Positions 27,023-57,428 of a DNA stretch of 64,000 bases are shown in pieces. Position 1 is the first letter of the stretch, and every line of letters begins with the position of its first letter. The DNA is from a virus. Its lineage: Duplodnaviria; Caudoviricetes. The notes beneath the pieces were generated by a model that saw only the letters and a program-made list of their open reading frames with translations, was not told where the DNA came from and did not search any database. The position numbers and the translations under genes were made by a program. The stretch is from the IMG/VR virus record IMGVR_UViG_3300013212_000088, positions 197,425 through 261,424 of that record; one strand, 5' to 3'.

Positions 27023-27226
27023 ATGATCATCAAAATTGACAAGGATATGTTGTTAGTCGAATTATATGAGCTAAGGTCTTTAGTTACTGACACATCTGTT
27101 CAAACTGAAGAAACTATTCAAGCTAGAAAAAAGCTAGATGAAATTGTCAATTTAATATCACTAGCACCAAGCGCAGAAAACAATCAATCATTCCCAAAAA
27201 TCAGTATACGTGGCTCAAAAAGATGA
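27023..27226 (+). CDS. hypothetical protein
   Basis: 67 aa; first gene after the strand switch. Confidence 0.55.
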   Translation: MIIKIDKDMLLVELYELRSLVTDTSVQTEETIQARKKLDEIVNLISLAPSAENNQSFPKISIRGSKR

Positions 27227-27702
27227 AAGAAATTATATATAAAATTAAAGAACTAGAAAAGCTAGGATATTTTAAGTTAGCTGATAAATTAGATTCTGAA
27301 TTAATTAAAATTGCTCAAATACTGCCAAAATCTCTAATGAGCCCTAATTTATTACCTACAATTGTAAATAATAATGCTCCATTAAACACATTTGAAACAG
27401 CTCAAATTAGAAATATGTTAAAGCAAAAGAAATCAGATTCTGCAGATGATACTAATGTTCTTTCACCAGGAAACCAAAATAATCAAAATCAAAGTACTGT
27501 AGAAAAAAGATTGAATGATCTTCTTGGTAAATATTTAGCACTTGACAAAAAATCTAAAAATACTATGGATAAAATTCCATCAATTATTTATGCTAATGAA
27601 GATCAAAGTACTGATATTGATACAAATACTCAAGATATTATGAATTTAAAAACGAAGATTGGAAATGCAGAAAACGTAGAGGAAGAAGAGCCAACATTAT
27701 GA
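27223..27702 (+). CDS. hypothetical protein with shared N-terminal leader
   Basis: ELEKLGYFKLADKLDSELIKIAQ leader. Confidence 0.65.
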   Translation: MKEIIYKIKELEKLGYFKLADKLDSELIKIAQILPKSLMSPNLLPTIVNNNAPLNTFETAQIRNMLKQKKSDSADDTNVLSPGNQNNQNQSTVEKRLNDLLGKYLALDKKSKNTMDKIPSIIYANEDQSTDIDTNTQDIMNLKTKIGNAENVEEEEPTL

Positions 27703-27941
27703 CACAATCAAGATTAGATTCCTTATTAGAAAATGCAAAAAATAATGAAACTACTCTTTCTGAAGTAACTGAAATAGTGGGTTCAGTTTTACTATCAAAT
27801 TCAAAACATTCAAAAGATATAAAAGAACTACTTACAAGAATTATTACCAAGTTAGAAAGTATAGAACAAAGAGTTAATTTTTTATATGAAAACAACTCGC
27901 CCGTGTTTGCTGCGGTTTTAGAAGATGAAAAGGAGGACTAA
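27699..27941 (+). CDS. hypothetical protein
   Basis: 80 aa, ATGA overlap with upstream gene. Confidence 0.6.
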   Translation: MTQSRLDSLLENAKNNETTLSEVTEIVGSVLLSNSKHSKDIKELLTRIITKLESIEQRVNFLYENNSPVFAAVLEDEKED

Positions 27942-27957
27942 AAAGTCCTCCTTTTTT
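27928..27957. terminator. bidirectional terminator
   Basis: AAAAGGAGGACT-AAAA-AGTCCTCCTTTT between convergent genes. Confidence 0.8.
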
Positions 27958-28747
27958 ATTGTGCAGTATCAGCTAAACTTAATTTTACTTTGAATGGCTG
28001 GTCTGTCTCGTAACTAGCAAATAAATTAGTTGATATTTGGTACACATTACTACTTCCGGTGTATGGACATTTAATTACATACTCACCTTGTTCGTCAATA
28101 AATACCTCGCCTGTTTGATATTCTTTTTTAATTTTCTTTACAGGTTCACCGTCTTCATTGTAAAGAGTAGAACTTGTAGAATCGTAATCAGAATCAATCA
28201 AGCCTAAAGCACGTTTGCCTTCGTCAGTAAAAGCTTCATCGTCTTCATCAAGATATTCAGCTAAGTCTTCCAGAAGATCAATATCATCATAAGCAATTCC
28301 ATCTAAATCATCTGCTTCTGTTAAATTAAAAACTTCTTCACTATTAGACAAGATCTCTTTATATGAGGAATCATCTACTATTTCTTTTTCAGTTTTTACT
28401 TTTGTTGATTCGTTAAATGAAACATGTTTAGGATAATATTCAAATACTTGTTCTATCATTTGGCGATAAGACATTTTTTCTTCTGCATTAGCATTTAAAT
28501 TAGCAACATGATAAACAGCTGAAGAAAGCTTCTTGTATGATGGAGTCCAATCATATGAAAGCATACAAGTTTCATCATCAAAATTAAATGTTGTTGAATG
28601 AGACTTTTCTTGCATCACACCAACATTAATTCCAAACAAAGCCCCAAGCTTCAAAATATCTTCGGCCAAATCAGAATTAGATGCGGCTAATTTGTTAAGT
28701 TCAATGAAATAAAGTTCTTGTCCACGTTCAAGATTGTAATTAGACAT
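27956..28747 (-). CDS. hypothetical acidic protein
   Basis: 263 aa with GGAG SD. Confidence 0.65.
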   Translation of the reverse strand: MSNYNLERGQELYFIELNKLAASNSDLAEDILKLGALFGINVGVMQEKSHSTTFNFDDETCMLSYDWTPSYKKLSSAVYHVANLNANAEEKMSYRQMIEQVFEYYPKHVSFNESTKVKTEKEIVDDSSYKEILSNSEEVFNLTEADDLDGIAYDDIDLLEDLAEYLDEDDEAFTDEGKRALGLIDSDYDSTSSTLYNEDGEPVKKIKKEYQTGEVFIDEQGEYVIKCPYTGSSNVYQISTNLFASYETDQPFKVKLSLADTAQ

Positions 28748-28873
28748 TTATATACTCCTTATATTGTATATTAATTTATTTTACATTCAGAATCTTAAAT
28801 AAGCAACTAAAGGATGCAGTGTTAAAATGAAAGAAATTATCATTAACTGTAAAACTTAATTGAGGTAAGTTGT

Positions 28874-31243: not shown

Positions 31244-31245
31244 TA

Positions 31246-32226
31246 ATGCCAATATTCTCTTCTAATTACATAAGTAATTGGTACAAAGTCCAAGACATAG
31301 ATAATAACAATATCTATGTCTTGGAGTCTATTAAGTCTTCAATCTCTACTAGTCAATCTAAAAAAGATTATATTCAAGGAGATGGAGGAACTCATGTCAT
31401 AGCTTCTCTACAAACTGTTTGGAGCACTGACATCTCTTCTCCAATTTTACTGATTACACAAGATGATAATCAGAAAGAAGAATTTAAAGACATTCTAGAT
31501 ATTTTTATTAAATCATACGATAAGTTAAAAAACTTTTATTTAAATGCTAGCGAAGCTACTATTGCTGATCCTAATAGCGAAATATTATTACAGCCAAAAG
31601 ATTTGCTCTCTAGTGCAATGCTAGATTTTACTGAACGAGGTAGCTCAGTTTCATTAACTTATAATTGTAAATATGATAAAAAGTTTGAAATAAACAAAAG
31701 TGATACTTTAAGCGAATCAATTTATAAAGACAACACAACTGGATTATATGGAGTTCAAAGGCTTAAACAATCACTTGACGAAAATAGTTTTATTGCAAGA
31801 ACGGTAAGGAATTATGATGTTAGCTTATTTGTTCATGAAAATGGCGAAAAATACGCTGTTAAAAATGCAAAGCTAAAATTTACTTTTGATTACAACGCAG
31901 TTAATTTTATTAATTCCAATACATCAATTCCATTTTTCGAGCCAAAAGGTTATTCAATTAGTGGTGAAGTAGAATTAATTATTCCACCTGATAAATTGGA
32001 CACATTTTTTTATCCTACAAAAAATGATGATACAAAACTTACTCCTGGTCAAAATTTTATGCAATTGGTAAGAGATAAAATTAATCTTTCAGTTGTTTTA
32101 TCAGATGGAAGAATTATAAAAGTAGGTCTGGCTAGTTTAAGTTCTCAAGTAAGTATTAGTATGAGAACAGAAACTGGTATAGCAACAGTTAATATGCAAT
32201 TTGAAACTTTTGCTAGTGTTATTTAG
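31246..32226 (+). CDS. beta-rich structural protein, tail tube-like candidate (paralog 1)
   Basis: aligns by eye with 32236-33150 (SNWY, IQGD.GTH, ART.R.YD, GYS..G). Confidence 0.55.
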   Translation: MPIFSSNYISNWYKVQDIDNNNIYVLESIKSSISTSQSKKDYIQGDGGTHVIASLQTVWSTDISSPILLITQDDNQKEEFKDILDIFIKSYDKLKNFYLNASEATIADPNSEILLQPKDLLSSAMLDFTERGSSVSLTYNCKYDKKFEINKSDTLSESIYKDNTTGLYGVQRLKQSLDENSFIARTVRNYDVSLFVHENGEKYAVKNAKLKFTFDYNAVNFINSNTSIPFFEPKGYSISGEVELIIPPDKLDTFFYPTKNDDTKLTPGQNFMQLVRDKINLSVVLSDGRIIKVGLASLSSQVSISMRTETGIATVNMQFETFASVI

Positions 32227-32235
32227 GAGATTCGC

Positions 32236-35305: not shown

Positions 35306-36256
35306 ATGCTAAAGCCAGTTTATGACATGGTAGATACGATGCTTGATAAAACAGAAAAGAAATCTTATTGGATGATTGATGGCAAGCTTATCAAAACTGC
35401 GCTACATGTTAAAATTCATCAAGCAAAATCCGCAGATAGATTTGGGAACTTTCGTTTAGCAGACAATTTAGATAAATCTATTCGCTTTGCATATCAAGAG
35501 GATAAAGAAGAAGAAGAGAATTGGCATGCACAGTCTGGTGAATATTGGATTGACGATTATGGCAATGCTCAATATGCTGATGGTGATGTTGGTGATGTTG
35601 GCCACGAAGAATTAGCTGAACAAGAAATATTAGGTAGATTAGGCTTTGACCCTTATGACTTACAAGGTGATACTGATCTTACTCATAATTCATATACTGC
35701 AGGTCATTTGCTCGATTCATTATATGACGATCCTATTCTTGAAGACTATTATAAATATTTGATTGATAATGGTTTAACAAAAGAAGATTATGATATAGAA
35801 TCTTATCTTCGCTATCTTAGACATAGAAATAGACCACAAGAAAATCATGAAGAATATAACAAACAAACTGAATCATTAATTGCAGGACTCAAAGATCCAA
35901 GAAACCATGCAATATTTAATTTTGGTTGGATTAGAGTTGTAAAAAGAGGCTCCACAGTTGATTTGGAACTTGAAAAACTTAATCAAAAAACCTTAAAAAA
36001 TATCTCCAGTGCAATAGGTGAGATTACTAGTTATCAAGAGAATCCTGATAGACTAAAGTTCAATATAGAAGTATTTAGCCCTCGTCATATTTCTCTGAAT
36101 GATATAACACTAAAAGATATAGAAAATGGATCAGTGCAATCAAAATATCTCCAAGGAATAAGAGAGATGTTGCCTCCTCAAGTAGCAGAAGAATATTATA
36201 AAAACTTCTTTGGTGCTGTAGGCCATCCATATTATAAAGGGCGTGTAGGTGATTAA
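35306..36256 (+). CDS. hypothetical protein with shared leader module
   Basis: QAKSADRFGNFRLADNLDKSIRFAY at about residues 39-63. Confidence 0.65.
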   Translation: MLKPVYDMVDTMLDKTEKKSYWMIDGKLIKTALHVKIHQAKSADRFGNFRLADNLDKSIRFAYQEDKEEEENWHAQSGEYWIDDYGNAQYADGDVGDVGHEELAEQEILGRLGFDPYDLQGDTDLTHNSYTAGHLLDSLYDDPILEDYYKYLIDNGLTKEDYDIESYLRYLRHRNRPQENHEEYNKQTESLIAGLKDPRNHAIFNFGWIRVVKRGSTVDLELEKLNQKTLKNISSAIGEITSYQENPDRLKFNIEVFSPRHISLNDITLKDIENGSVQSKYLQGIREMLPPQVAEEYYKNFFGAVGHPYYKGRVGD

Positions 36257-38417: not shown

Positions 38418-39353
38418 ATGAATATTTTATATGTTTCTAGAAAAGACGAAAATGGTTTTATCCATATAGACTACCTTGATGAATGTTTACTTACAGGACT
38501 CAAGGAATTATATGGAAACCAAGTTGTCGATATTAATAAAAAACTTTCTCTCTACACAGACTATCCTGATGAATTAAAGCACAGGGTTTATGGTAGAGGA
38601 TATACAATTACTCAAAATATCGAACCACATGAATGCGATAGAGATGATATAGAAAACAAAATTAAAAATAATTTCTATGACTATGTAGTGTATGCAAAAA
38701 TAGAAAATTGTCAAGATTATTTTGATCTTGTCAATGAATGTTATCCCAAAAATAGAATAGCATTGTTAGATGGTGGAGATTGGATGAACATACATCCTTC
38801 TATTACTCACAATACAATGTTTTTTAAAAGAGAATGTTTTTTAGGTTTATCAAATGTCAAATATTCAAGATACTTTAGTAATATTAAGCCGATATCTTTC
38901 GCATACCCAACAAAAAGAATATCGAGAAATACAAATAAAAGTAAATTACTATCAATTATTAACCCTTTAGACAGATCAACTTATTTTGAAAAAGATAATC
39001 CATCAGAATATATCTTTAAATCAGAAGAAGAATACTATAATGAGTACAAAACTTCTTCTTTTGCAATTACATGTCATAAAGCAGGCTGGGATTGCTTAAG
39101 ACACTATGAAATAATGGGAAATGGTTGCATCCCATTATTTCATAGAATAGAATCAGCTCCTCCTGGAACTATAAGTAGTTTACCAAGAAGATTATTGTTG
39201 CAAATAAAAACTCTTTGGGAAAGTAATCAAGAATATTTGATTAATAATTATGAAGAATATTCAGAAAGATTATTTGAACATTTTATTCAACACAACACAA
39301 CAATTAAATTAGCAGAATATTTCATTAAAGAAATGGAAGAAGCACAAAAATAA
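38418..39353 (+). CDS. glycosyltransferase-like (exostosin/GT47-like C-terminus), paralog A
   Basis: KAGWDCLRHYEIMGNGCIP. Confidence 0.6.
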   Translation: MNILYVSRKDENGFIHIDYLDECLLTGLKELYGNQVVDINKKLSLYTDYPDELKHRVYGRGYTITQNIEPHECDRDDIENKIKNNFYDYVVYAKIENCQDYFDLVNECYPKNRIALLDGGDWMNIHPSITHNTMFFKRECFLGLSNVKYSRYFSNIKPISFAYPTKRISRNTNKSKLLSIINPLDRSTYFEKDNPSEYIFKSEEEYYNEYKTSSFAITCHKAGWDCLRHYEIMGNGCIPLFHRIESAPPGTISSLPRRLLLQIKTLWESNQEYLINNYEEYSERLFEHFIQHNTTIKLAEYFIKEMEEAQK

Positions 39354-39377: not shown

Positions 39378-40283
39378 TTACTTGTAAAGTTCGAGCTTAC
39401 TAACAAATCTTTTTGCTACAGCTTCAGTAGTACAGAATTTTACTACATACTTTTGCAATTCTTCAAGGTAGTAATTGTATTCACGCATTAACCACTTCTG
39501 ATCAGTTACATGCCAGAACATAATCTTTGTCAATAGAGCCTTTGGAACATGCATCATAACATGTCTAGGACATTCATGAATATTTTCGAACAATGGCATA
39601 CAACCATTACCCATAATTTCATAATGTCTTAAACAATCCCATCCAGCCTTAGCCTTAGTGATTCCAAATTGAGACTTTTGATAATCTGCATAATAATCTT
39701 TCTCATTATCAAAAACATATGTTTTAGGATTACCAGGAATTGATTGGGACATAAATTGGGTTTTCTTTTCACCAAAATTAAGTTTCTTTGTAGGAAAAGC
39801 AAAACCAACTGCAATTACATTCCCAAAATACTGTTCAAATTCCATGTTGTTCTCATACATTAACTCTCTCTTGAAATATAATGTGCCATGCTTAACTACA
39901 TGATTGAACTTAGTCTGATCGTCTCCATCAACAAAAGCAATCTTGTTCTTGTCATAATTATCTAAAACAAGTTTCAAATAATCAGTGTTTCGCCATACTG
40001 ATCCATAAATTACATAATCAAAATACTTGCTCTTGATCTTGTTTTCAATGTCTGTTCTGTCAGCATTGTCTTCTTCAATACAACGAGTAACGGTAAAACC
40101 CTTACCATAATTATTCGGAACAAGCTCTTCAGGATAATCTGTATATAAGTGCTTTCTGCGATTGACATCAACTACGTCACCACCATAAAGTTCTTTTAAA
40201 CCAATTAAAAGACAATCATTCTGGTAGTCAACAAGTGGATGCGCTGGTGTTTCTACATCTGTTCCGATATAAAGAATTTTCAT
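39378..40283 (-). CDS. glycosyltransferase-like, paralog B
   Basis: KAGWDCLRHYEIMGNGCMP; similar to 38418-39353 along its length. Confidence 0.6.
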   Translation of the reverse strand: MKILYIGTDVETPAHPLVDYQNDCLLIGLKELYGGDVVDVNRRKHLYTDYPEELVPNNYGKGFTVTRCIEEDNADRTDIENKIKSKYFDYVIYGSVWRNTDYLKLVLDNYDKNKIAFVDGDDQTKFNHVVKHGTLYFKRELMYENNMEFEQYFGNVIAVGFAFPTKKLNFGEKKTQFMSQSIPGNPKTYVFDNEKDYYADYQKSQFGITKAKAGWDCLRHYEIMGNGCMPLFENIHECPRHVMMHVPKALLTKIMFWHVTDQKWLMREYNYYLEELQKYVVKFCTTEAVAKRFVSKLELYK

Positions 40284-40934: not shown

Positions 40935-43900
40935 ATGCCTCGAATTAAAATAGCTTCAATTAAAACTTCATCAAATCAAAAAAGAATAATTAAAACAGCG
41001 CAAAGAGCTATTAATTTATCCACTGCATTTGATCAACAAGGCTCATATAAAAACTCTTCTGAATTTTTTGAACTTGCCTGTCGTTATGCTAGATTTATCA
41101 CAGCACAAGAAGAACCAATTGAAGAACCTAGACCTTCAGCAGACGAAGTTAATTGGGAGAGAGTTCATAAACAAAATGTAACTCCAGAACTTGAAGAAGC
41201 TTACAATTTATATCCTACTAGTAATAAAATAAATTATTCTGAACCAAGACCCATACTTACTCAACCAAAATATGGATCTTCTTATGAAGATGTTCATTTC
41301 CAAAATGCAAATAAATTAACAAAAAGTTTTTATGACCAACTTGTTGCAAATAATGGGAATGTTCTTCAGTCTTTAAATGCAGTTGAAGACTTGATTAAAT
41401 CTTTGAGAGGGACTTTTAATTCTAATAACCAAAATTTAGTAAGTAATTTTTTTATTGAAAGTTTAGGCTTGGCTTTAGCAGCATTTTATAAAGATAATAG
41501 TTTTTTATCAATAAACAATCGCACTACAAGTTATGCACATAGTTATGCAATAAATATTTATTCTAATGCTCTTGATAATAATCAAAATTTAAGCAGAGTT
41601 TTAGGTCAACCGACAATTGAAGTTGACAATCAAACTGAGCGTCATTCAAAATTATTAGCATACTTAAAAGATTTATTCAAAGAAGAACTTTCACAAAATT
41701 CTCAAAAGATTATGCCAATGATTTCTCATATCATGCATAAACCAGGTTATTTTATGACTGGTTCAGCTGAAAATCAAAGATTAAGTGTAGACAAAGATGA
41801 TTTTTTAACTGTTTATTTTGCAAACGATCATTTAGCTTACGATGATGGATATTCTGAAGGAATTGGTTTAGATGAAATTGTTCATAGATTGGATTTCATC
41901 AAAACATTCGGCAGAGAAAACTATGATAAATATATAGACAATGAGAATAATCAAGTTGCATTTAGTGATAGGAATCATTTACAAGAAAAATTTAAATCAT
42001 TTGAACAGAATCCAAGCCCTGAAGCATTAAAAAATGTAATGTCATTTTTGATGAAATACGAAAATGTTATTGGATACAGTGGATCTACTAGAGATGTATA
42101 TTATGAGAAGTTAAATCGAATTTTAAAACAATTCGGTGAAGACTTTGTAGCCCAATTCTTTTCAGCAGAAGAAAAAAATTATGATTTAGGTTACATTACT
42201 AATGTCGCATACTCATTAATGTTAAAAGGTAAATCTGCTGAAGAAATCACTGATACTTTAGTAAAAAATGAAAGCAGTTTGGCTAACTTAGCATACAATC
42301 TTCAAGGAACCGACCTAGCATATGAATATTTAGAACAAAGGCCTGAACAACTACAATTGTTTATGGATTATGTAAATAAAGAGTTGGTTGATGATGAGAT
42401 ATTTAAGAATTTTCCTGATGCTAAAAAAATCATAGACAACTCTTTAAAAACTTATCTTGATTGGCTAGTTAAGAATTCAAGAGGTGATGTTGACAAAACT
42501 CGTGCTTTAGCGCTTGGATATTCAAGTCTTTTCTCACATGCATATAGAGAATTTGGCGAAGATGTTATGAAAATAAGTGCATTTGGAATGTCTTTAATTG
42601 TGCAAAATGATGCATATGACAGAATAAGATACGAGCAGATTATTGAGAATAAACATATACCTAGTCCAGAGCAAGACCAAGCTAAAGGAAATGCAATTTA
42701 TCAGTTCATTGAAGACAACCATAAAAGTTATTCTTCTGATTATTATAGATATAATCAAAAAGATGATCCACACAAAAGTTCAGCATTAAGAAAAATTGCA
42801 GAAAATTCAGTCGTAATGTTTGGTAATAATCCGAATGCAAAATATTTATCTGCCAAAGTTCAACTCCCTTCACCCATAGATGAAGAAAATAGAAAAATTG
42901 GTGAAGATTTTCTTAACTTTAAAACTAAAGGCATTTATTCTTTTCAAAACCTTACACAGCTTTTTAAATTTATTCCACCAGAGATAAAGAGTAAATATGA
43001 TACCCATGAATTAGGTATTTTAGTAAGCTTTTTTGATGACACATATATGTCTGAAAATAATAATAAAGCAATAGAAAGATTTGAAAATGCTGTTAATACT
43101 ATAGCAAGAAAAAATCCTGAGCTATATCAAAGAAAAGGAGAAAAGTACTATACACTTCTTAAGCATTTTTATATGTCTCCTGGCACAAAAATTGACAATC
43201 TTGATGGATTATTTGGATTGTTAGAACTTGCAAGATCCTCTATCAAAGAACAAGAAGCAGTTAAGCATTTTGATAGATATGAAATGTTTTCCCCAAAAAA
43301 TCTAAGCTTATATGTTCAGACTACACAACTTAAATGCCCCGAATGTGAAAAACTAAGAACTTTTGATTCTCAAGCACAAAAATGGTCTTGTTCAAATTGT
43401 GGAAATTCAAATAGTTTAAATTTAGCTGACATTGCTGAACTTTTAAAAAATAAAAAAGGCAATATGCAACTTCTGGTTATTTCTAATATAATATCCTTAA
43501 GAGACGAATTAATTGCTCTTACTAAATCATTTAATGCTTTAACTCAATCCAATTTCAATATTACAAGTAATTGGCAAGATATGAATTCAAGAGCGTTATT
43601 GTTTTCACTGCCTCGTGATCCCGATAGCGGAAATTTTATTGGTACCGAAGAAGAAATAAATCACGCAAATACTGTAAGACAAACATTAGATATGATTTTG
43701 ACAAAACAAACTAATGTTCAAAATAGTGATGAAATTTTAAAAGAATTTTTATTGGCTAGAAATGATAATGATATTCAAACTTCAATTGAAAATTATCTGA
43801 CAAGCTGGATTAAGAAAACTTTGACAAATGTAAGTAATGAAGATTTTGAAAATATAAATATAGAAAAGTACATGAGTGACTTTTCAAATCTGGCAAATAC

Positions 43901-49249: not shown

Positions 49250-50164
49250 ATGGAAATTAGAAGTTTAATTATTTTAGCTGCAAAAGCTGACTCAGAAGGA
49301 AATTTTAGAGTTGCTGATAGATTAACTGCAAAAATTGAAACAATGTCGAGAGAGGCAAGTTTCAGTTTTAGTCCAGCTTTTAAAGCACTTATTGAAAAAA
49401 TACCTGGTGTAGCAGATGGAGTAAAAAGAAGTGATTCGATTCCTGAGGGTTTTGAATTTTACAACGGAATGCATATACCTAAAGCAAGTATGCCCTCAGT
49501 CCAAGCAGCAGCTGCAGAAGCAGTTAAGGCAGCTAAAGAAGCAGCTAAGGCAGCTAAGGCAGCTGGAGGAGCAGCTAAGGCAGCTGGAGGAGCAGCTAAG
49601 GCAGCTGGCGGCGGTGGTGGCGGTGGTGGCGGTGGTGGCGGTGCTTCCATTGGTGATATAAATATTACTGGATTTAAAGGCGACGCAGGGGCCAGAGGAC
49701 TTAGAGGTTTAAGAGGATTGGCAGGGGCTGCAGGACCTGCAGGTTTAAGAGGATTGGCAGGGGCTGCAGGACCTGCAGGTCCCGCTGGGGCATGGTGGCC
49801 AGGCCTTCTTGCTGGCTTATTAAGTGGTGCTATCGGGGCTGGTGGAGTTGCAGCCTGGTTGGCTAGCAAAGGTGCCGATAATGCTGTTGTAAGAGATATG
49901 GAAAAACACTTAGAAAAACTCCCGCAGTATCAAATGATGACAAGAAGAACAAATTCTGGCGATTTGACAGGTGCTAAAGCAATACAAGCACAAAACTTTG
50001 TTGATACCAATTCAACAAATACAAGATTGAAGAATCAAAGAGACTGGTACAATCTTGCACTCCAACAGTCAGGTGGAGACTCAAACTTTGCTAATAACGT
50101 TATTTCTTTAGTTAAAGCAACTCCACAAATGCCTTCATCAATTGGTGGCGGCCCAAACATATAA
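49250..50164 (+). CDS. leader-bearing Gly/Ala-rich protein with short collagen-like segment
   Basis: LAAKADSEGNFRVADRL leader; AAKAAGG repeats, poly-Gly, 13 G-X-Y triplets, hydrophobic helix. Confidence 0.75.
   Translation: MEIRSLIILAAKADSEGNFRVADRLTAKIETMSREASFSFSPAFKALIEKIPGVADGVKRSDSIPEGFEFYNGMHIPKASMPSVQAAAAEAVKAAKEAAKAAKAAGGAAKAAGGAAKAAGGGGGGGGGGGGASIGDINITGFKGDAGARGLRGLRGLAGAAGPAGLRGLAGAAGPAGPAGAWWPGLLAGLLSGAIGAGGVAAWLASKGADNAVVRDMEKHLEKLPQYQMMTRRTNSGDLTGAKAIQAQNFVDTNSTNTRLKNQRDWYNLALQQSGGDSNFANNVISLVKATPQMPSSIGGGPNI
49550..49777 (+). repeat. in-frame tandem repeats: 21-bp unit x about 3, GGY run, exact 36-bp duplication
   Basis: GCAGCTAAGGCAGCTGGAGGA at 49550 and 49571, partial at 49592; 49706-49741 identical to 49742-49777. 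Confidence 0.9.
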
Positions 50165-50169
50165 TCAAA

Positions 50170-51429
50170 ATGAATACTAATGAATTAATTAAATTAGCAA
50201 AACAAGCTGATTTTGAAGGCGATTATGATTTAGCTGATTATATTGATAATCAGCTAAGAACATCATCAAATAATAAAAATATTAGAGAAGCTGTAGATTT
50301 AGGAGCTACTTTTGGTAAAGTCTTTAAACCAATAGGAAATGCCTTAGGAAAAATCCCTGAGTTTTTTGGTTATGGTAAATATAAAGCTCCTTTAAATTGG
50401 TCAAAACCCGCTGTTGATTTGGCGACTAGTAACCCAAATATATCTGGTAACGCTTTTCAAAAGGCATTAGGTTCTATAAACAAAGAAATTAATTTAGATG
50501 CAAATCAAGTTAAAAACCTAGAAACTACTTTGATCCAGCAAATGACTAGTTCAATTGGTCAAGCAGATGTTCCTACTGTTAAAGCTCTTGAAAAATTAGT
50601 TAATAAAGAATTTAGTAAGCTAACCATTGCAGAGAAAGGATTAATTGCAAAATATGCTAGAGAAACTGGAATTGTTGGCAGAAGAACTGATGCAGACTTT
50701 ACTGATATATTAGATTTGGTAAGCGGTAAATCCTTACAAGTTAGACCAAGAACAGTCCAAAGAGTTAATAGAAATACAAAACTATTAGGCGGAGGTGCTG
50801 CTGCTGCAATGGCCGCTCCAGGTTTATATGGAGCGTTTGGTCCACAGGCTCCAGACGCTACTGGTTCTTCTATTCCTGACGGACCTGCAATGACTGGTAT
50901 GCCTCAACTTGGTCCAGGAATGGGTGGATTCGGTGGTGGCATGGGTGGATATAATGGTCCTCAGGCTAACGGCCCTAATATGGGCAACTTTGCTCCAACA
51001 CAGCCTATTGGTTTAGGTTATGGAAGCACCATGACAGATCCAGCATCTCAAAGAGGTAGAGAATCTGGTGGTTATGCACCTACATCTGGATACACAGGCA
51101 GAAGTGAAAGAGAAATCAATCCTGCTGCAAAGTTTAGAACAAATGAAGTTGGAATGATGAGAGGTGAAGCACCTCCAGTATATAATAATTTTAATGCTGG
51201 TTATAATCCTGGTATTCAACCTTCAGCAGCTCCTATGGCACAACAGTCAGTGTCAATTCCACCTGTAAATAATGCAGTGGGTCCTCAAGCATTACCAGCT
51301 AAATTTGCAGATGATTTAAGACCAGCAACTCCTGCAGAAGCAGCAAAATACGAAGAACCTGAAACTCCTCCAATGACACCAGGACAAATTCAAAATGCAT
51401 TGAATCCTCTGTCAGGAGCAGGTTATTAA
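50170..51429 (+). CDS. leader-bearing protein with Gly/Pro-rich C-terminus
   Basis: LAKQADFEGDYDLADYIDNQL leader. Confidence 0.7.
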   Translation: MNTNELIKLAKQADFEGDYDLADYIDNQLRTSSNNKNIREAVDLGATFGKVFKPIGNALGKIPEFFGYGKYKAPLNWSKPAVDLATSNPNISGNAFQKALGSINKEINLDANQVKNLETTLIQQMTSSIGQADVPTVKALEKLVNKEFSKLTIAEKGLIAKYARETGIVGRRTDADFTDILDLVSGKSLQVRPRTVQRVNRNTKLLGGGAAAAMAAPGLYGAFGPQAPDATGSSIPDGPAMTGMPQLGPGMGGFGGGMGGYNGPQANGPNMGNFAPTQPIGLGYGSTMTDPASQRGRESGGYAPTSGYTGRSEREINPAAKFRTNEVGMMRGEAPPVYNNFNAGYNPGIQPSAAPMAQQSVSIPPVNNAVGPQALPAKFADDLRPATPAEAAKYEEPETPPMTPGQIQNALNPLSGAGY

Positions 51430-51734: not shown

Positions 51735-51800
51735 CTCATCAGCTTAATTTAAAAAAAACCCCTCTAAAAAAATCAAAAAAACTCTATGCTTTAAATTATC

Positions 51801-51838: not shown

Positions 51839-51861
51839 TGATCTATCCACTTACCCAAATA

Positions 51862-51892
51862 AAAAAAGGAGAAACAATAGTTTCTCCTTTTT
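51862..51892 (-). terminator. terminator downstream of pilin-like gene
   Basis: AAAAAGGAGAAAC-AATA-GTTTCTCCTTTTT. Confidence 0.75.
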
Positions 51893-51908
51893 CTTGGGTT
51901 AATAAGAA

Positions 51909-52877
51909 TTACCTTACTGGAAAACCTGCCTGATCAAGAACTTGCTGACCTGTTGGGTAGTAGCTCTTTCCCCATAGGAAGTTATTAGGATTAATTGTAG
52001 TGTCAAATTTGAAGAACTTAGCATGTCCATCTGCAAAAACATAGTTAGATCCTCCTGTATGACGACCTGGTTCCATGAAACGAATATGGTATCCAAAATC
52101 AGCAGAAACTGTACGACATCCACCAGTACCATTTGATGCAGTGGAATCAGAAGGACCACCCCATCCAAGTGCACCTTGTGCTTCGTTCTTTGTAATTGCA
52201 TAAACAGGTCCTGTTGCATCCGCAACATTCTGTCCGGCCCATGCACCACCTGCGGCGGTACGCATCATAGCGTTGACAGGGCGGTGAGACTTGTTACGCT
52301 TTTCATTGTTTGTCTGGCCAGTTGAGCCGAGGAGGATACAGCTCAGACTACCTGTCATCTCAGCAATAGCAATCACATCTGCAGGTGCATCGACAGCGGC
52401 GATAGAAACGATGTTTGGCGCATCCTGTGGACCACGCTTGCGTGGAAGGATTGCAGAGTTTGGAATGTATGACAAGCGAGGTACCTGTGCTTCGCATCCA
52501 AGGGTATTAACATCAAGCCAGTTTGCACATGGAGCATTATCTGGACGAATGCCTCTAGTTGGATCTGATGGACAAACCCAAACTTGCTCATTCTTAATAT
52601 ATGGATGAATCATTGCTGTGAAGTGAACATAACCACCAGCTGATCCGCCATTTGTAGTTGCAGTGTTATTCTTATAGAAGTAAGCAGTTGGATATGTTTC
52701 ATCATAATCCTGTGTGTACATCATTAAACCCAAACCAATTTGCTTCTCATTTGATAAACAACTAGCAGAACGAGCCTTGTCTCTTGCCTGTGCGAAAACA
52801 GGGAACAAGATAGCGGCCAAAATTGCGATAATGGCAATGACAACGAGTAATTCAATAAGTGTAAATGCTTTTTTCAT
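51909..52877 (-). CDS. prepilin N-methylation domain protein (DUF1559-like) with C-terminal H-X9-DG motif
   Basis: [33 protein letters not shown]...CLSN.KQIG; [16 protein letters not shown]. Confidence 0.92.
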
Positions 52878-52982
52878 TTTTTAATCATTTCCTTTCAGAG
52901 ATTCATTAGTATTATTCCAACTTTTAATTAGATAAATATTAAATAAATATTAAGAAATTAAATTATTGTATATCTACTACAA

Positions 52983-53510
52983 ATGATAAGAATAAATCCA
53001 ATATATAAGAGTGAAATTACAACACAGTCATATAAGCCTAAAGACACTATAGAAGATGTAAAATTAATTGATCTTCCCCTATATAATGATGACTGCGGGG
53101 GCTTTACAGAAATAGTGCGGCTCAATGAAAACAATACAGTGATAAATCTAGAACAATTCCAAGCAAAACAATTATCATGGTCAATTGTTCATCCAGGTGT
53201 TATTAAAGCATTTCATCTACATTACACACAAGATGATTTATGGTTTGTTCCGCCCACAGAAACTCTCCTAATAGGTTTGTTTGATTGTAGAGAGGATAAA
53301 AGCGGAAAAATGCGGTTTGTAATGGGGGCAGGTAAAGCACAAATCCTATACATTCCAAAAGGGGTGGCACATGGATATACAAATCACACAAATGAAAAAC
53401 AATCAATTATTTATTTAACAAGCCAACATTATAACAGAGAAGAGCCAGATGAAAGAAGATTGCCTTGGGACACATTAGGTAAAGACTTCTGGGATATACA
53501 AAAAGGCTAG
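52983..53510 (+). CDS. rmlC: dTDP-4-dehydrorhamnose 3,5-epimerase family (cupin)
   Basis: GGFTE, PGVIKAFHLH..QDD, LYIPKGVAHGY. Confidence 0.85.
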   Translation: MIRINPIYKSEITTQSYKPKDTIEDVKLIDLPLYNDDCGGFTEIVRLNENNTVINLEQFQAKQLSWSIVHPGVIKAFHLHYTQDDLWFVPPTETLLIGLFDCREDKSGKMRFVMGAGKAQILYIPKGVAHGYTNHTNEKQSIIYLTSQHYNREEPDERRLPWDTLGKDFWDIQKG

Positions 53511-53519
53511 ATTTGCCCC

Positions 53520-53822
53520 TCAAATTGGACCAGACATAAACAAGAAATCAATTATTCTACATAAACAAATAATAGTGAAAATTATTAAAGAATAAAACTC
53601 ATATGCTTTTTTATAATGTGGGCGGAAATCATAATAGCTCTTGTATCCATAATAAACAGTGACACATAAACACAGGATATAAAGAAACCAAGAAATAAAA
53701 TCACTAGATGTTAATGCCCAAATATAATATAGAACACATTGAAATAAGAAGAATAACATACTATTCTTATACCTAGAGTAAAAAATATTAGCACTGTAGA
53801 ATATTAATGGTATGTGGTACAA
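53520..53822 (-). CDS. small membrane protein
   Basis: several hydrophobic aromatic-rich segments; start uncertain. Confidence 0.4.
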   Translation of the reverse strand: MYHIPLIFYSANIFYSRYKNSMLFFLFQCVLYYIWALTSSDFISWFLYILCLCVTVYYGYKSYYDFRPHYKKAYEFYSLIIFTIICLCRIIDFLFMSGPI

Positions 53823-54723
53823 ATTAGCAGCTCAAGGCATTATCGAACACAAAGCAACAGACCAAGAAATTGATGCGCTTGTTGATAGTAGTTTGATTGA
53901 TAATGGCGAAAATTATATAATCAATCAAGCTAATCTAAAAAATGGCTTGATGAGTATATTTCCAAACTTAAAAAACGTGGAATTTGAAAATTTGTCTGAT
54001 TGTTTTGGTGAATATATCTTAGAACTTTCATCAATAACATTACCAATTGAAATTTCTAAAAATAATGTTCCAATATTTAAAGCTACACTACATCACGAAC
54101 TCCAACATGCACAAGACCCAAGAATGCAAAATGTACCTGAAAAAGTGCAAGCAAAAAGCGACGAAGCTAATCTTGCAAACTATTTAGGTGTTTCTAAAAT
54201 TGATGAAAATACTCAAATACCAACATATGAAGAAGTTGTTGAAAATGTATTCCAAAGTTTCGAAGGCAGAGAATCAACACCAGAAGACCAAGATTTTATA
54301 AATCAAATCAAACAGAAATATACACCAGAAAAATATAATCTAGTAATTGAAAGAATCAAAGCTGGTGATCATCCTTATTTAAATGCAGAATACGAAAAAC
54401 CAGCCAATTTGAAGGATTTTAGAACCTTATTTTCTATCTTTAATCTAATGTCAGTAAAGGAAATTATTTCTTCAAATCCATCATATGACAATCAACAACA
54501 CATTAAAACAATTATTAATATTTTAAGAAAGCCATCTTCTCCCACTTTTAAAAAATTAGAAGAATTAATAATACAAAAAAACCCATCTTTTGCTGAAACA
54601 TTTCCTCCAACATTTTTAAGAGAAATGAATACAAACTCAAAATATGAAATACAATTTAAAAAACAAATGGGAAATATTATCAACGAATTACAACAACTAT
54701 TAGAATCAGGTAAAGGTAACTAA
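53812..54723 (+). CDS. MWY-leader protein with HExxH zincin motif
   Basis: MWYKLAAQ; TLHHELQHAQD. Confidence 0.7.
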   Translation: MWYKLAAQGIIEHKATDQEIDALVDSSLIDNGENYIINQANLKNGLMSIFPNLKNVEFENLSDCFGEYILELSSITLPIEISKNNVPIFKATLHHELQHAQDPRMQNVPEKVQAKSDEANLANYLGVSKIDENTQIPTYEEVVENVFQSFEGRESTPEDQDFINQIKQKYTPEKYNLVIERIKAGDHPYLNAEYEKPANLKDFRTLFSIFNLMSVKEIISSNPSYDNQQHIKTIINILRKPSSPTFKKLEELIIQKNPSFAETFPPTFLREMNTNSKYEIQFKKQMGNIINELQQLLESGKGN

Positions 54724-54724
54724 A

Positions 54725-55423
54725 ATGTGGTATCGAAAAGCAATGGATTTGAGTAATCTTAATAGAGAATTCTCAATTGAAAAAGAAAATGCAGTTGAAG
54801 ATTACGATGAGCAATCAATGAAAGAAAGCGTGGAAGATTTGTTTGCTAAAGTAAGAGCAGGCGAAGAATATACATCTCCTTCCGGCGCAATTAAAGTTAT
54901 GCCACCAAGAGAAGAACCACCATTTACAGATGAAGAAGTGGATGGCAGATTTGATAGCGAAAGCACCGATGCATATGATGTTTATGAGGGAATAAAAGAG
55001 TTCCCATCTACAATAACCACTCTAAAAAATACAGCTCAAATTATATCCAGATATATCGATAGCGGAGTGTTACAAGAGTTTAATAGAAAAATTGATTCAT
55101 TATCTCCTATGTTAGAAAAGATAATTCAATCAGCTTTTGAAAAAGTACAATTGATTGAATCTTCTTTCAACAACCCTGAACTATCTAGACAATTTGATAG
55201 AGAAGGTTATCCAAAACTAACTGAAGCTGAAGTAATGAACTCTAATATATTAACACTCCAAATTACAAAAGCTATCAACGAATTATATAACTCTATAAGA
55301 AATGAAGATGCTCGACAAGAATGGCTTAATACAATGGCAAGAAAAAGTGTGGCTGCAAACTTTTTAAGACCTGCAGATAAAACAAGATACAAAGAAACAA
55401 TGAATAATATTTGGGGCCTATAA
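54725..55423 (+). CDS. MWY-leader hypothetical protein
   Basis: MWYRKAMD. Confidence 0.7.
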   Translation: MWYRKAMDLSNLNREFSIEKENAVEDYDEQSMKESVEDLFAKVRAGEEYTSPSGAIKVMPPREEPPFTDEEVDGRFDSESTDAYDVYEGIKEFPSTITTLKNTAQIISRYIDSGVLQEFNRKIDSLSPMLEKIIQSAFEKVQLIESSFNNPELSRQFDREGYPKLTEAEVMNSNILTLQITKAINELYNSIRNEDARQEWLNTMARKSVAANFLRPADKTRYKETMNNIWGL

Positions 55424-55425
55424 TT

Positions 55426-55932
55426 ATGTGGTATAGATTAGCAATAATTATCAACGATGGACAATTAGAATCAGAACTTCTCAATAACGCAAAAACTACT
55501 GATGATATTAAAAGCAACTATAGAATGCTTGTAAAAAAATACCACCCAGATGTAAACCAAGATCCTGATTCCACAGAAAACTTAAAAAACCTTACTAGAG
55601 TTTATGAAGAAGTGAGAGATCAACCACTATACACTACAAATGAAATAAGAAATGAAACTACTGAAGATTCTGTTAGAGATGATATAGAACTTCAAGATAA
55701 TTTCTTAAACACAGATGAAGAAGCTTTAAAAATGGGAATAGTTCAGTCTGTAGAAACATATTTCAATAATAATGTTCCTGAAATGTATGACACTCCTGGC
55801 TTTGATGTCTACGAAAATATAACAGAAATAATTTTCGAAAATACTAAAAATATAAACCCAACACCATATAAAACAATTTCAAATCTTATTAACTCTATAG
55901 CTGGAAAATATATAAGGGAGAATTATAACTAA
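55426..55932 (+). CDS. MWY-leader J-domain (DnaJ-like) protein
   Basis: MWYRLA; DDIKSNYRMLVKKYHPDVNQDP with HPD motif. Confidence 0.8.
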   Translation: MWYRLAIIINDGQLESELLNNAKTTDDIKSNYRMLVKKYHPDVNQDPDSTENLKNLTRVYEEVRDQPLYTTNEIRNETTEDSVRDDIELQDNFLNTDEEALKMGIVQSVETYFNNNVPEMYDTPGFDVYENITEIIFENTKNINPTPYKTISNLINSIAGKYIRENYN

Positions 55933-56156
55933 TTCTTCTTTAAACTCTTAGCATATTTTAACATAGAATCTACTTGGGCCTTACTTGGCTTCTCACTACT
56001 ATCAACTCTATACATATCATAAATAGTCTTACGTAAATCTTTAGTCTTTAACTTACCACCAAACAAAACCGCAGCAGGTTCATGGCATTTAATACACCGA
56101 TCCCTAAACTCAACTTTAGGATCAACTAATAACAAAAATATTAAAATTGCATTCAT
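55929..56156 (-). CDS. small monoheme c-type cytochrome-like protein
   Basis: hydrophobic N-terminus MNAILIFLLL, CIKCH, candidate axial Met in IYDM; ATG at 56156. Confidence 0.65.
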   Translation of the reverse strand: MNAILIFLLLVDPKVEFRDRCIKCHEPAAVLFGGKLKTKDLRKTIYDMYRVDSSEKPSKAQVDSMLKYAKSLKKN

Positions 56157-56229
56157 ATCTGTTTTATAAAAGGACAGATAAAACAAAATCAGTAAAATAA
56201 TACTATCAACCCTCAAAAAGGAAAAAAAT

Positions 56230-56565
56230 ATGAATAAAAGAACTGTAATGGCATCCTTGAACAAGATTGCTAACGAACTCGACAACAATGGCTTACACAA
56301 TGAAGCCGATACAGTAACCAAAGTTATGTCCAGATTAGCTTATGATGATTTTGATGAAAGAGATTATTATGCTGACAAAATGGAAGATAACATTGAAGAT
56401 TACATGCCATATGGTGATGAAGACGATGATATGGACATGGACGAAGATGATGACTTTGACATGGGTCCAGAATCAGAACCATTCGACTTTAGTTCACCAG
56501 AAGATAAAGACGACATGTATGGTAATGATATGAAAGGATACATGGACAAAGATACCGATTTTTAA
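56230..56565 (+). CDS. NKR-leader protein 1 with Asp/Met-rich acidic body
   Basis: MNKRTVMASLNKIANELDNNGLHNEADTVTKVMSRLAY. Confidence 0.75.
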   Translation: MNKRTVMASLNKIANELDNNGLHNEADTVTKVMSRLAYDDFDERDYYADKMEDNIEDYMPYGDEDDDMDMDEDDDFDMGPESEPFDFSSPEDKDDMYGNDMKGYMDKDTDF

Positions 56566-56582
56566 TCTTAAATAAAATCAAA

Positions 56583-56624
56583 AATAAATAAGTGGCAATA
56601 AAACAATTTTGCCACTTATTTATT
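56583..56624 (+). terminator. 16-bp stem-loop between NKR genes
   Basis: AATAAATAAGTGGCAA ... TTGCCACTTATTTATT. Confidence 0.55.
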
Positions 56625-56638
56625 TATTAGGTAAACAA

Positions 56639-57067
56639 ATGAATAAAAGACAAATAATAGCATCTTTAATCAAGATTGCTAATGAATTAGATAATAATGG
56701 TATGAACAATGAAGCAGATGCATTAACCAATGTAGCTGAAAGATTTGAAGATACTAGATCACCTATTGAAAAACGTGCTTCAGAAAAAATTAAATTATTA
56801 CAAGATAAATTGAGAAAAATAATTTATAAGTCATATAAAACATCTAAAGATGGAGATATGACAAGAACTGATGATATTCAAGCTGTTCTTATGAAAATAT
56901 TATTTGAAAAAGATTTAGGAACATTCTTGAGAGATGAAGCTTACAAAACTGGAGCTAACCTTCCTGCTGGCCAAATCATGACAATAGTTCATTATATTAA
57001 TATGCTCAAAGAAAATCCATATGCCCCATCTGAAATTTATAATTATATTGACACATTATTAGATTAA
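56639..57067 (+). CDS. NKR-leader protein 2
   Basis: MNKRQIIASLIKIANELDNNGMNNEADALTNVAERF; ATG at 56639. Confidence 0.75.
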   Translation: MNKRQIIASLIKIANELDNNGMNNEADALTNVAERFEDTRSPIEKRASEKIKLLQDKLRKIIYKSYKTSKDGDMTRTDDIQAVLMKILFEKDLGTFLRDEAYKTGANLPAGQIMTIVHYINMLKENPYAPSEIYNYIDTLLD

Positions 57068-57072
57068 ATAAA

Positions 57073-57428
57073 ATAAATAAAAGACAAATCATAGCATCAT
57101 TAAATAATATAGCCAGCACATTAGATAATTCAGGTTTATTTTGCGAAGCTAATACAATCACCAAAGTAATGATAAAATTAGCTCAAGAGGAAAAAATAAA
57201 ACAAAATATTCTGATGATGAGTTAAATGAAGCTATGACAGAACAAGGCATTCAAAAAGCCTTCGAAACATACAAAAGCAAAGGCGGAAGCGCAAGCCAAG
57301 ATTCATTTGCATCACAATTCAAATTTTTAATTGGAAGAATGCTTGAAGGCTTTACTAACAATATGGGTGTTGCTATTGCTGAAGAAAAATACAAAACAAA
57401 TAATCCATTCTGGGATCCTAGAGACTAA
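57073..57428 (+). pseudogene. NKR-leader protein 3 with ATA start and a frameshift
   Basis: ATA-AAT-AAA-AGA-CAA-ATC... reads INKRQIIASLNNIASTLDNSGLFCEANTITKVMIKLAQ and stops at 57223-57225; the -1 frame continues into ORF 57234-57428. Confidence 0.65.

What the first reader, a model, noticed from the sequence alone, without database searches (positions are those of the whole stretch)
27223..57428. A portable ~30-aa N-terminal tag shared by at least eight otherwise unrelated proteins: candidate capsid-targeting system
Seen: consensus hAxx[AL]DxxGx[FY]xxA[DN]xh...[KR]xA. Examples: 27223 ELEKLGYFKLADKLDSELIKIAQ; 35306 QAKSADRFGNFRLADNLDKSIRFAY; 40935 LSTAFDQQGSYKNSSEFF...FITAQ (more divergent); 49250 LAAKADSEGNFRVADRL...REAS; 50170 LAKQADFEGDYDLADYID...REAV; 56230 IANELDNNGLHNEADTVTKVMSRLAY; 56639 IANELDNNGMNNEADALT; 57073 IASTLDNSGLFCEANTITKVMIKLAQ. 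The bodies differ completely (acidic, collagen-like, Gly/Pro-rich, 1490-aa multidomain). Known: T4 internal proteins use a short N-terminal capsid-targeting sequence removed by gp21. Inference: this helical-hairpin tag loads diverse cargo into the head for injection and can be grafted onto new genes.
Basis: partly seen in the sequence, partly recalled or inferred. Interest (0 to 1): 0.85.

Follow-up and report, generated by a model that had tools for sequence, protein, structure and literature searches.

The report
Portable helical-hairpin tag on phage proteins
An uncultivated freshwater giant phage and its relatives put the same 38-residue, TPR-like helical hairpin on the ends of many unrelated proteins, which looks like an undescribed address label, possibly for loading cargo into the virus head, though where it sends them is not shown.

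Summary
The tag is real. Leave-one-out profiles recover nine intact genes in this 261-kb phage genome, six of them in the window, plus one decayed copy at 57073. Their bodies are unrelated. The 1490-aa example at 40935 is not statistically supported.

The tag folds as a confident helical hairpin (pLDDT 95) and resembles a single TPR unit (hhalign 95%). No Pfam or PHROG family covers it. A profile finds 1313 protein clusters in metagenomes, almost all with the tag at residues 1-39. Related 300-358 kb phage contigs give 8-22 tag matches each. Bacillus phage G, the closest cultured relative, has none.

The tag ends in a nearly invariant [KR]-[LIV]-[AS]-Q, after which conservation stops. The tripeptide [KR]-T-A is about 6-fold enriched in this phage's head-gene block only. 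K-x-A is similarly enriched in phage G's head block. One orthologous body carries either the full hairpin or only MWYKLAAQ.

This fits a T4-like capsid-targeting leader that the head protease removes, but every link to the virion is inferred. Internal, repeated and C-terminal copies show the hairpin is a docking module in its own right, not just a cleavable signal.

Verdict: a genuine, widespread, undescribed phage module. Capsid targeting is the leading hypothesis but is unproven. Other readers of this scan noted the short motif in other windows of this genome.

The parts
27223..27318 (+). Tag (aa 1-32, ends KIAQ) of the 159-aa protein at 27223-27702
   Evidence: Leave-one-out profile E 5e-5, rank 9 of 2827; translation
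35393..35494 (+). Tag (aa 30-63, ends RFAY) of the 316-aa protein at 35306-36256, followed by an acidic linker
   Evidence: Leave-one-out E 2.9e-3, above all decoys. An ortholog in a related contig, L038:976-1977, keeps the tag
49250..49357 (+). Tag (aa 1-36) of the 304-aa Ala/Gly/Lys-rich, collagen-like protein at 49250-50164
   Evidence: Leave-one-out E 6.8e-7. The body gives only low-complexity 'tail fibre' PHROG hits
50170..50274 (+). Tag (aa 1-35) of the 419-aa Gly/Pro-rich protein at 50170-51429
   Evidence: Leave-one-out E 1.3e-5. A tagged Gly-rich protein lies at the matching place in syntenic L004 (1485-2588); its orthology was not tested
56230..56343 (+). NKR-type tag (aa 1-38, ends RLAY) of the 111-aa protein at 56230-56565, whose body is 45% Asp+Glu
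   Evidence: Fold of this tag has pLDDT 94.7
56639..56752 (+). NKR-type tag (aa 1-38) of the 142-aa protein at 56639-57067
   Evidence: Hairpin at 3-19 / 23-37 in the whole-protein model
57073..57428 (+). Decayed tagged gene: tag at 57073-57186 starts with ATA, the frame ends after 57 aa, and the body continues out of frame as ORF 57234-57428
   Evidence: Intact 127-aa homologs at L025:910-1290, L011:7332-7703 and L013:6437-6883 join both parts
40935..41108 (+). 58-aa leader of the 1490-aa protein. It is not a supported tag member, but it is nearly invariant among orthologs that are 36-47% identical elsewhere. It holds KIAS, KTAQ and ITAQ and is followed by a Glu/Pro-rich linker
   Evidence: Profile score below noise; hhalign probability 4%; ortholog alignment
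53812..53835 (+). Short form of the tag (MWYKLAAQ) on the 303-aa protein, whose body has an HExxH motif. Neighbouring genes start the same way: 54725 (MWYRKAM) and 55426 (MWYRLAI, a J-domain protein)
   Evidence: The L021 ortholog has the full hairpin before the same AAQ. Starts with MWY occur 7 times against 0.1 expected; the same starts are kept in L004 and L021
28874..28900 (+). Short N-terminal [KR]-h-A-Q motif (MKNNFRFAQ) on the 789-aa protein
   Evidence: [KR][TILFVM]A[QY] occurs 10 times in the first 70 residues of all genes against 2.8±1.7 expected
56171..56198 (+). Promoter-like element AGGA-N17-GTAAAA, ending 33 nt before the 56230 start codon and conserved in front of the first gene of NKR arrays in relatives
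56583..56624 (+). 16-bp hairpin followed by a U-rich run, between 56230 and 56639 (terminator-like), also present in relatives
   Evidence: Folding energy -18.8 kcal/mol, z -7.25. The same GTGGCAA...TTGCCAC element is seen in L009, L011, L013 and L021

Best explanation
The tag is a self-folding, 38-residue antiparallel helical hairpin with the sequence pattern of one TPR unit. It acts as a portable docking module at protein termini. All proteins that carry it are brought to one phage-specified destination. The most likely destination is the interior (scaffold core) of the assembling head. There the head maturation protease would cut after the [KR]-h-A that ends the tag, releasing the cargo for co-packaging and perhaps injection. 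A short form (MWY-[KR]-h-A-x-Q) keeps only the last turn of helix B plus the junction, and would be the minimal signal.

Shown: the family, its fold, its portability, its restriction to phage sequences, the conserved junction, and the head-block-specific enrichment of the same tripeptide.

Inferred: binding to a head component, cleavage, and packaging.
For: Family and fold.

TPR-like pattern: hhalign probability 95%, E 2e-8.

Conserved polar residues (N2, K3, R4, D18, E25, T30) beyond what a hairpin core needs, which suggests a common binding partner.

Junction: position 35 is K/R in 97%, position 36 is L/I/V in 98%, position 37 is A/S in 96%, position 38 is Q in 47%; nothing is conserved after that.

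Head-block motif: [KR]TA occurs 21 times against 3.7±1.9 expected, and [KR]hA 43 times against 17.1±4.2, in the 17 head-block proteins. The rest of the proteome is at expectation, 31 against 28.9. The same K-h-A excess is seen in phage G gp12-gp21 (13 against 3.4±2.0) but not in gp28-52. K-x-A sites sit at domain boundaries of a scaffold-like protein in four genomes.

Head genes: the major capsid protein, portal and a protease-like domain were identified and the large terminase. The tagged gene at genome 185012 lies between terminase and portal, and its ortholog in G001 keeps both the position and the tag. An MWY protein lies next to the portal.

Portability: swap of the full and the short tag on one orthologous body.

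Copy number: 8-22 tag matches per related giant-phage contig, often in arrays. No match in 185,579 prokaryote genomes.

Promoter: the NKR-array promoter shares its -35 box, spacing and distance to the start codon with promoters in front of tail and head genes.
Against: There is no virion proteome, so cleavage and packaging are untested.

Only 5 of the 9 intact tags in this genome end in a strict [KR]-h-A-[QY]; 56639 has RFE and 46840 has KDI.

In the model, K35-L36-A37 lie inside helix B. Their conservation may therefore be structural, and the abrupt loss of conservation may simply mark a domain boundary.

Internal, tandem and C-terminal copies would not be released by one cut.

The bodies show neither enrichment nor depletion of the motif.

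Most tagged genes lie outside the head block, next to replication or unknown genes.

The recognisable bodies (FHA, AP2, zinc ribbons, ferritin, a J-domain on the short tag) look like intracellular effectors.

The -10 box of the NKR promoter differs from the head/tail one.
Confidence: 0.4

Rival explanations
1. The hairpin is an intracellular docking or oligomerisation module. It joins many small effector proteins to one hub, or to each other by TPR-like stacking, inside the infected cell. The hub could be a host machine such as RNA polymerase, the ribosome or the nucleoid, or a phage factory. The virion plays no part.
For: The bodies look like regulators or effectors: very acidic tails, zinc ribbons, FHA, AP2, ferritin. 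Copies occur inside proteins, in tandem with a TPR-like period, and at C-termini. The nearest structures are generic binding or dimerising hairpins such as ROP and designed binders. The genes form hypervariable arrays outside the head block, with their own promoter variant.
Against: It does not explain why the tag ends in the tripeptide that is enriched only in head proteins. It does not explain why a tagged gene is a conserved member of the head block. It does not explain why a 7-residue remnant of the tag is kept on orthologs.
Confidence: 0.27
2. The tag and its short form are chaperone-recruiting leaders. A hydrophobic core flanked by Lys/Arg (for example WYKLA or RFA) is what Hsp70 binds. 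The phage encodes its own DnaK-like protein and J-domain proteins.
For: The genome has an Hsp70-like gene at 76298 and J-domain genes at 81960 and window 55426; the last itself starts MWYRLA. A paper cites T4 propeptide roles that include recruiting chaperonins (PMC10052503).
Against: A stably folded hairpin (pLDDT 95) with conserved polar surface residues is not a typical Hsp70 client segment. Nothing links the tags specifically to the chaperone genes.
Confidence: 0.1
3. There is no shared function. The hairpin is a stable N-terminal cap inherited through duplication of one founder gene, with later replacement of the 3' parts by recombination.
For: The genes form tandem arrays with frequent fusion and decay: P0023 looks like two members fused, and 57073 is a pseudogene.
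Against: The tag is kept under strong purifying selection while bodies turn over completely. Members within one genome are only 21-32% identical to the 56230 tag yet keep the pattern. The paralogs differ at synonymous sites. The tag also occurs at C-termini and on single-copy, syntenic genes.
Confidence: 0.1
4. The tag is a leader peptide for export or for RiPP-type maturation: one conserved leader with many variable cores, as in prochlorosins.
For: Arrays of small genes have an almost invariant leader and hypervariable remainder.
Against: The bodies are 73-378 aa in this genome and up to about 1000 aa in relatives, not short Cys/Ser/Thr-rich cores. No maturase, peptidase-transporter or double-Gly site turned up among the proteins scanned against Pfam. 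The tag also occurs at C-termini.
Confidence: 0.03

Closest known systems
Phage T4 capsid-targeting sequence (CTS) of the internal proteins IPI-III and Alt (Mullaney & Black 1996, as cited in PMC10052503)
   Same: A portable N-terminal element sits on unrelated, partly hypervariable cargo. It ends at a motif that matches the candidate head-protease site. The short MWY-[KR]-h-A-x-Q form has about the length of the T4 CTS.
   Different: The full tag is a folded 38-residue hairpin, not a roughly 10-residue peptide. The junction is [KR]-h-A, not the T4 site ending in Glu (from my own knowledge). The tag also occurs internally, repeated and at C-termini. Packaging and cleavage are not shown here.
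N-terminal propeptides of phiKZ / 201phi2-1 / SPN3US head and ejection proteins, cut by the prohead protease at a three-residue motif (PMC10052503)
   Same: It is a giant phage. A short cleavage-like motif is over-represented in many head proteins, often several times per protein. The motif also occurs in the region of the portal's N-terminus.
   Different: Those propeptides are not a shared sequence family. Here one conserved domain is reused on many proteins. The motif chemistry differs: Ala rather than Glu at the presumed P1 position.
C-terminal helix-turn-helix coat-binding domain of the P22 scaffolding protein, and the shared capsid-binding C-terminal helix of the 80alpha scaffold and SaPI1 CpmB (from my own knowledge)
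   Same: A small terminal helical element docks a protein to the inside of an HK97-fold shell and can be borrowed by other proteins.
   Different: No sequence relation was tested or seen. The partner of the present tag is unknown. The phage's own scaffold-like proteins do not carry the tag.
TPR repeats of the TPR_10/TPR_12 (kinesin-light-chain) type
   Same: The tag has the same helix A, Gly turn and helix B pattern. The profile-profile match has probability 95% over 27 columns. Two tags in tandem in P0028 are spaced at roughly a TPR period.
   Different: The tag is solitary rather than part of an array of three or more repeats. The second half of helix B (T-x-V-M-x-[KR]-h-A-Q) is specific to the tag. 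The Pfam TPR models do not match it.

Membership tests
T4-type capsid-targeting sequence | The element is necessary and sufficient to load a protein into the prohead | not testable with these tools
   This needs virion proteomics or a fusion-packaging assay. The phage is uncultivated.
T4-type capsid-targeting sequence | It ends at a site cut by the head maturation protease | tested here: inconclusive
   The tag ends in [KR]-[LIV]-[AS] in 96-98% of 133 tags. The same tripeptide class is enriched only in head-block proteins. Cleavage itself is not shown, and 4 of 9 local tags lack the strict motif.
T4-type capsid-targeting sequence | It sits at the N-terminus of internal head proteins | tested here: inconclusive
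   138 of 168 profile matches are N-terminal, 27 internal and 3 C-terminal. One tagged gene is a conserved member of the head block. Most tagged genes lie elsewhere.
TPR repeat (Pfam TPR_10/TPR_12) | Helix-turn-helix unit with the TPR small/large residue pattern | tested here: met
   hhalign probability 95.3%, E 2.2e-8. Hairpin model pLDDT 94.7.
TPR repeat (Pfam TPR_10/TPR_12) | Occurs as a tandem array of three or more units forming a solenoid | tested here: not met
   There is one unit per protein in all ten genomic copies. Only rare metagenomic proteins have 2-3 copies, and these are mostly dispersed.
TPR repeat (Pfam TPR_10/TPR_12) | Recognised by the curated Pfam models | tested here: not met
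   TPR_12 has no match in the genome even at E 10. No TPR family is listed for the tagged proteins.
RiPP or bacteriocin leader peptide | A short modified core peptide, with a maturase or peptidase-transporter encoded nearby | tested here: not met
   The bodies are 73-378 aa. No such enzyme turned up among the tagged proteins and relatives scanned against Pfam.
Scaffolding-protein coat-binding hairpin (P22 type) | Binds the inner face of the major capsid protein | not testable with these tools
   No usable computational answer was obtained; see Tried and rejected.

The most novel reading that the evidence does not exclude
A two-tier, exchangeable address code of a large clade of freshwater giant phages. 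A solitary TPR-like hairpin (the long form) or only its last turn (the MWY short form) marks dozens of unrelated proteins per genome. The hairpins of different cargo proteins would stack on each other in trans, like TPR units, to build a mixed protein body inside the head. The head protease would then free that body at [KR]-h-A. This would be a new way to co-package an evolving arsenal of injected effectors.
Probability: 0.12. Interest if true: 0.85.

Novelty: new variant of a known kind. Interest (0 to 1): 0.62.

Why it matters
Giant phages carry many proteins in their heads, and how those proteins are selected is largely unknown outside T4. Here one folded, recognisable module marks up to about twenty proteins per genome in an abundant, uncultivated freshwater phage clade. 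It has at least 1313 sequence clusters and is absent from Pfam, PHROGs and cultured phages.

If the module is the loading signal, it gives a direct sequence-based way to list the injected cargo of uncultivated giant phages. It would also be a ready-made tag for packaging foreign proteins.

If it instead docks effectors to a host target, it points to a common hub of host takeover. Either way the module defines a large family of fast-evolving phage proteins, and it makes a long-open question (how cargo is addressed) testable with one fusion experiment.

Tried and rejected
Complex prediction of the capsid protein (alignment A6) with the tag (A2) gave no verdict. It is not evidence either way.

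Pfam and PHROGs gave nothing informative for the tagged proteins, for 147 representatives, or for large tagged proteins from relatives.

tblastn of the tag against 50,697 phage records found no match. The profile has no match in phage G, Tunturiibacter phage Tunturi_5 or LR745208.

The phage G particle-proteome paper (PMC12484599) has no held supplement and reports no cleavage sites, so the K-h-A motif could not be compared with detected proteins.

A full-text search for the motif string returned only irrelevant papers.

Foldseek of the 40-residue model returned only generic hairpins, all with E above 1.

A promoter scan for AGGR-N17-19 boxes did not separate tagged genes from other genes, because most lie inside operons.

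Counting the motif in cargo bodies showed neither enrichment nor depletion.

The protein-atlas look-up for 35306 gave no lead. Orthologs of 40935 were not found in G001-G003.

A DNA-level explanation (a conserved 5' cassette or recombination box) was rejected, because the paralogs differ at synonymous sites and their upstream DNA is unrelated.

The 'ribosomal protein S21' name on one tagged metagenomic protein rests on a Pfam hit with E 0.064, well below the cut-off. It was not used.
Full report
**Context.** The window is the last 64 kb of a single 261,424-bp virus contig (GC 33.6%; CheckV completeness 73%). It encodes RNR, a DnaE-type polymerase, a helicase and SbcCD in window 1-26.5 kb. A head block lies at genome 169-191 kb, with the major capsid protein, a 1401-aa protein with a protease-like N-terminal domain, the portal and the large terminase. 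The capsid protein is 48% identical to Bacillus phage G gp27. It has more than 1000 close metagenomic relatives, on contigs up to 421 kb. Near-identical DNA occurs in lake, river, estuary, aquifer and wastewater metagenomes from 11 studies.

- A profile of the three obvious paralogs alone finds only one further ORF.
- An iterative search converges on ten ORFs. It admits no decoy from a database with seven times as many sequences.
- A profile built only from the divergent members finds genome 185012, which links the two groups.
- In leave-one-out tests each divergent member ranks directly behind the training sequences and above 2570 decoys, with E from 6e-9 to 3e-3.
- The bodies are unrelated. 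They range from 45% Asp+Glu to 43% Gly+Ala+Pro.
- The paralogs differ at many synonymous sites and their upstream DNA does not align, so the constraint is on the protein.
- The 1490-aa protein at 40935 is not a supported member. Its 58-residue leader is nevertheless far more conserved than the rest of the protein, and it contains KIAS, KTAQ and ITAQ.
- The copy at 57073 lacks a canonical start codon and is frameshifted relative to intact 127-aa homologs.

**What is the tag?** AlphaFold2 with the 17-row alignment gives a hairpin with helix 3-19, a turn at 20-22 and helix 23-38, at pLDDT 94.7. The whole-protein model of 56639 shows the same hairpin. A search of 1.84 billion representative proteins finds 1313 clusters at E≤1e-3 and 211 at E≤1e-10. 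Nearly all are short proteins with the tag at residues 1-39. Two hits are true TPR_10/12 proteins. Profile-profile comparison of the tag with their 42-residue units gives probability 95% and E 2e-8 over helix A, the turn and half of helix B. So the tag has the pattern of one TPR unit, but it is solitary and the Pfam TPR models do not match it. No Pfam or PHROG family covers it. The NKR-type tag was found on 23 IMG/VR contigs and in none of 185,579 prokaryote genomes. Three related 300-358 kb contigs give 17, 22 and 8 profile matches, while phage G, Tunturi_5 and LR745208 have none. Within 12-kb loci, up to 7 tag matches occur, often as adjacent genes. Contigs L004/L005 are syntenic with window 51.9-58.7 kb and carry four adjacent NKR genes where the window has two plus the pseudogene.

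**Anatomy that bears on function.**
1. In 133 N-terminal tags, position 35 is K/R (97%), position 36 is L/I/V (98%), position 37 is A/S (96%) and position 38 is Q (47%). After that nothing is conserved, and the linker is rich in Asp, Glu and Pro.
2. The window protein 53812 begins MWYKLAAQ. Its 58%-identical ortholog in L021 has a 28-residue hairpin ending ...RIITAAQ, and the alignment starts exactly at AAQ. The MWY starts are thus the last turn of the tag. They occur 7 times against 0.1 expected. They are conserved in relatives, and one lies next to the portal gene.
3. [KR][TILFVM]A[QY] is enriched in the first 70 residues of the proteome (10 against 2.8±1.7) and not beyond (12 against 10.4).
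4. [KR]TA occurs 21 times in the 17 head-block proteins against 3.7±1.9 expected, while the other 77,390 residues are at expectation (31 against 28.9). [KR]hA shows the same contrast, 43 against 17.1.
5. Phage G shows the same excess of K-h-A in gp12-gp21, including the N- and C-terminal parts of its maturation protease gp19, but not in gp28-52.
6. In a scaffold-like 351-aa protein, K-x-A sites are kept at the boundary between the acidic spacer and the conserved domain in four genomes.
7. The tagged gene at genome 185012 lies between terminase and portal. Its G001 ortholog (37% identical) keeps both the place and the tag.

**Points that do not fit a simple leader.** 27 of 168 profile matches are internal and 3 are C-terminal. 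Proteins such as P0024, P0025, P0028 and P0079 carry three copies. In G001, three tandem paralogs of about 900-1000 aa end in the tag, and the protein stops within one to three residues of where N-terminal tags end. The genomic copy at 65174 is also C-terminal, and that protein starts MKRLKIAQ. Only five of nine local tags end in a strict [KR]-h-A-[QY]. The junction residues are helical in the model. Cargo bodies are neither enriched nor depleted in the motif. The recognisable bodies are FHA, AP2, ferritin-like and zinc-ribbon domains, and the short tag sits on a J-domain protein and on a protein with an HExxH motif.

**Expression.** The first gene of each NKR array has a conserved AAAGGA-N17-GTAAAA(A)TA element about 33 nt before the start codon. 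In this genome it shares its -35 box, spacing and distance with AGGA-N17/18-AGAATA sites in front of a tail gene, a gene that another window's note calls an S8 protease, and a head-block gene. The -10 box differs. The gene at 56230 is closed by a strong hairpin followed by a U-rich run. This is weak evidence for co-regulation with structural genes.

**Reading.** The shown facts are best joined by one model. The hairpin is a terminal docking module, and the [KR]-h-A junction is a processing site of the head protease. The protease is related by profile to known maturation proteases. The closest working analogue is the T4 capsid-targeting sequence, and the propeptides of phiKZ-like phages are a second analogue (PMC10052503). 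I put this model at 0.40. The main rival (0.27) is a docking or oligomerisation module for intracellular effectors. It explains the bodies and the non-terminal copies better, but not the link to the head-specific motif. Chaperone recruitment (0.10), no shared function (0.10) and a RiPP or export leader (0.03) follow. The tag is not filed as a TPR repeat or as a T4 CTS, because defining features were either not met or could not be tested.

**Earlier notes of this scan.** First readers of other windows of this genome had proposed a short N-terminal K/R-x-small-Q signal and a [KR]-x-A-[SQA] cleavage code. I tested both here and they hold statistically. A follow-up on another phage G relative reported an h-x-K-h-A leader. 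The phage G count agrees with it.

**Novelty.** Portable loading tags are known, but this folded, TPR-like, clade-wide module and its long and short forms appear undescribed.

Noticed in passing
genome 169,800-191,200 (head block; loci L006, L007), outside the window: [KR]-T-A is about 6-fold over-represented in the 17 head-block proteins only (21 against 3.7 expected). Up to 6 sites occur in the 1401-aa protease-fusion protein and 5 in a 351-aa acidic scaffold-like protein. Bacillus phage G gp12-gp21 show the same K-h-A excess. This is a candidate cleavage code (Ala at P1) of the maturation protease in phage G-like viruses.
   Followed up: partly
window 51909-52877 (-): The phage encodes a DUF1559 / prepilin-type N-terminal methylation protein (Pfam SBP_bac_10 E 5e-10, N_methyl E 2.5e-7). 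From my own knowledge this type is typical of Planctomycetes and Verrucomicrobia. The gene is conserved at the same place in relatives L004/L005 and may hint at the host.
   Followed up: partly
window 53812-55932 (+): Three consecutive genes all start with MWY[KR]. The first has an HHELQH (HExxH, metalloprotease-like) motif and the third is a J-domain protein. The trio is conserved in L004 and L021.
   Followed up: partly
window 57073-57428 (+): A tagged gene is decaying. It has ATA in place of the start codon and a frameshift that separates the tag from the body (ORF 57234-57428). Intact 127-aa versions exist in several related contigs; one of them uses GTG as its start.
   Followed up: yes
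window 56171-56624 (+): The 111-aa, 45% acidic tagged protein is a self-contained unit. It has a conserved AGGA-N17-GTAAAA promoter-like box and a 16-bp terminator-like hairpin (-18.8 kcal/mol, z -7.25). Both are conserved in relatives.
   Followed up: partly
L032:642-9064 (G001, 33.5-45.5 kb): Three tandem paralogs of 997, 909 and 905 aa have no recognisable domain. Each ends in a C-terminal copy of the tag.
   Followed up: partly
window 38418-39353 (+) and 39378-40283 (-): Two convergently oriented paralogs (311 and 301 aa) have very similar N-terminal regions (...DYLDECLLTGLKELYG / ...DYQNDCLLIGLKELYG). Their function is unknown.
   Followed up: no
genome 65174-65854 (L003), outside the window: A 226-aa protein starts MKRLKIAQ, continues with a Gly/Met/Pro-rich low-complexity stretch, and ends in the tag. 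It lies directly upstream of the gyrase B-like gene.
   Followed up: partly
window 59,000-64,000: GC content rises from about 0.30 to 0.38-0.40 and the genes become short and of unknown function. One of them (60111-60575) has an ortholog in L021.
   Followed up: no
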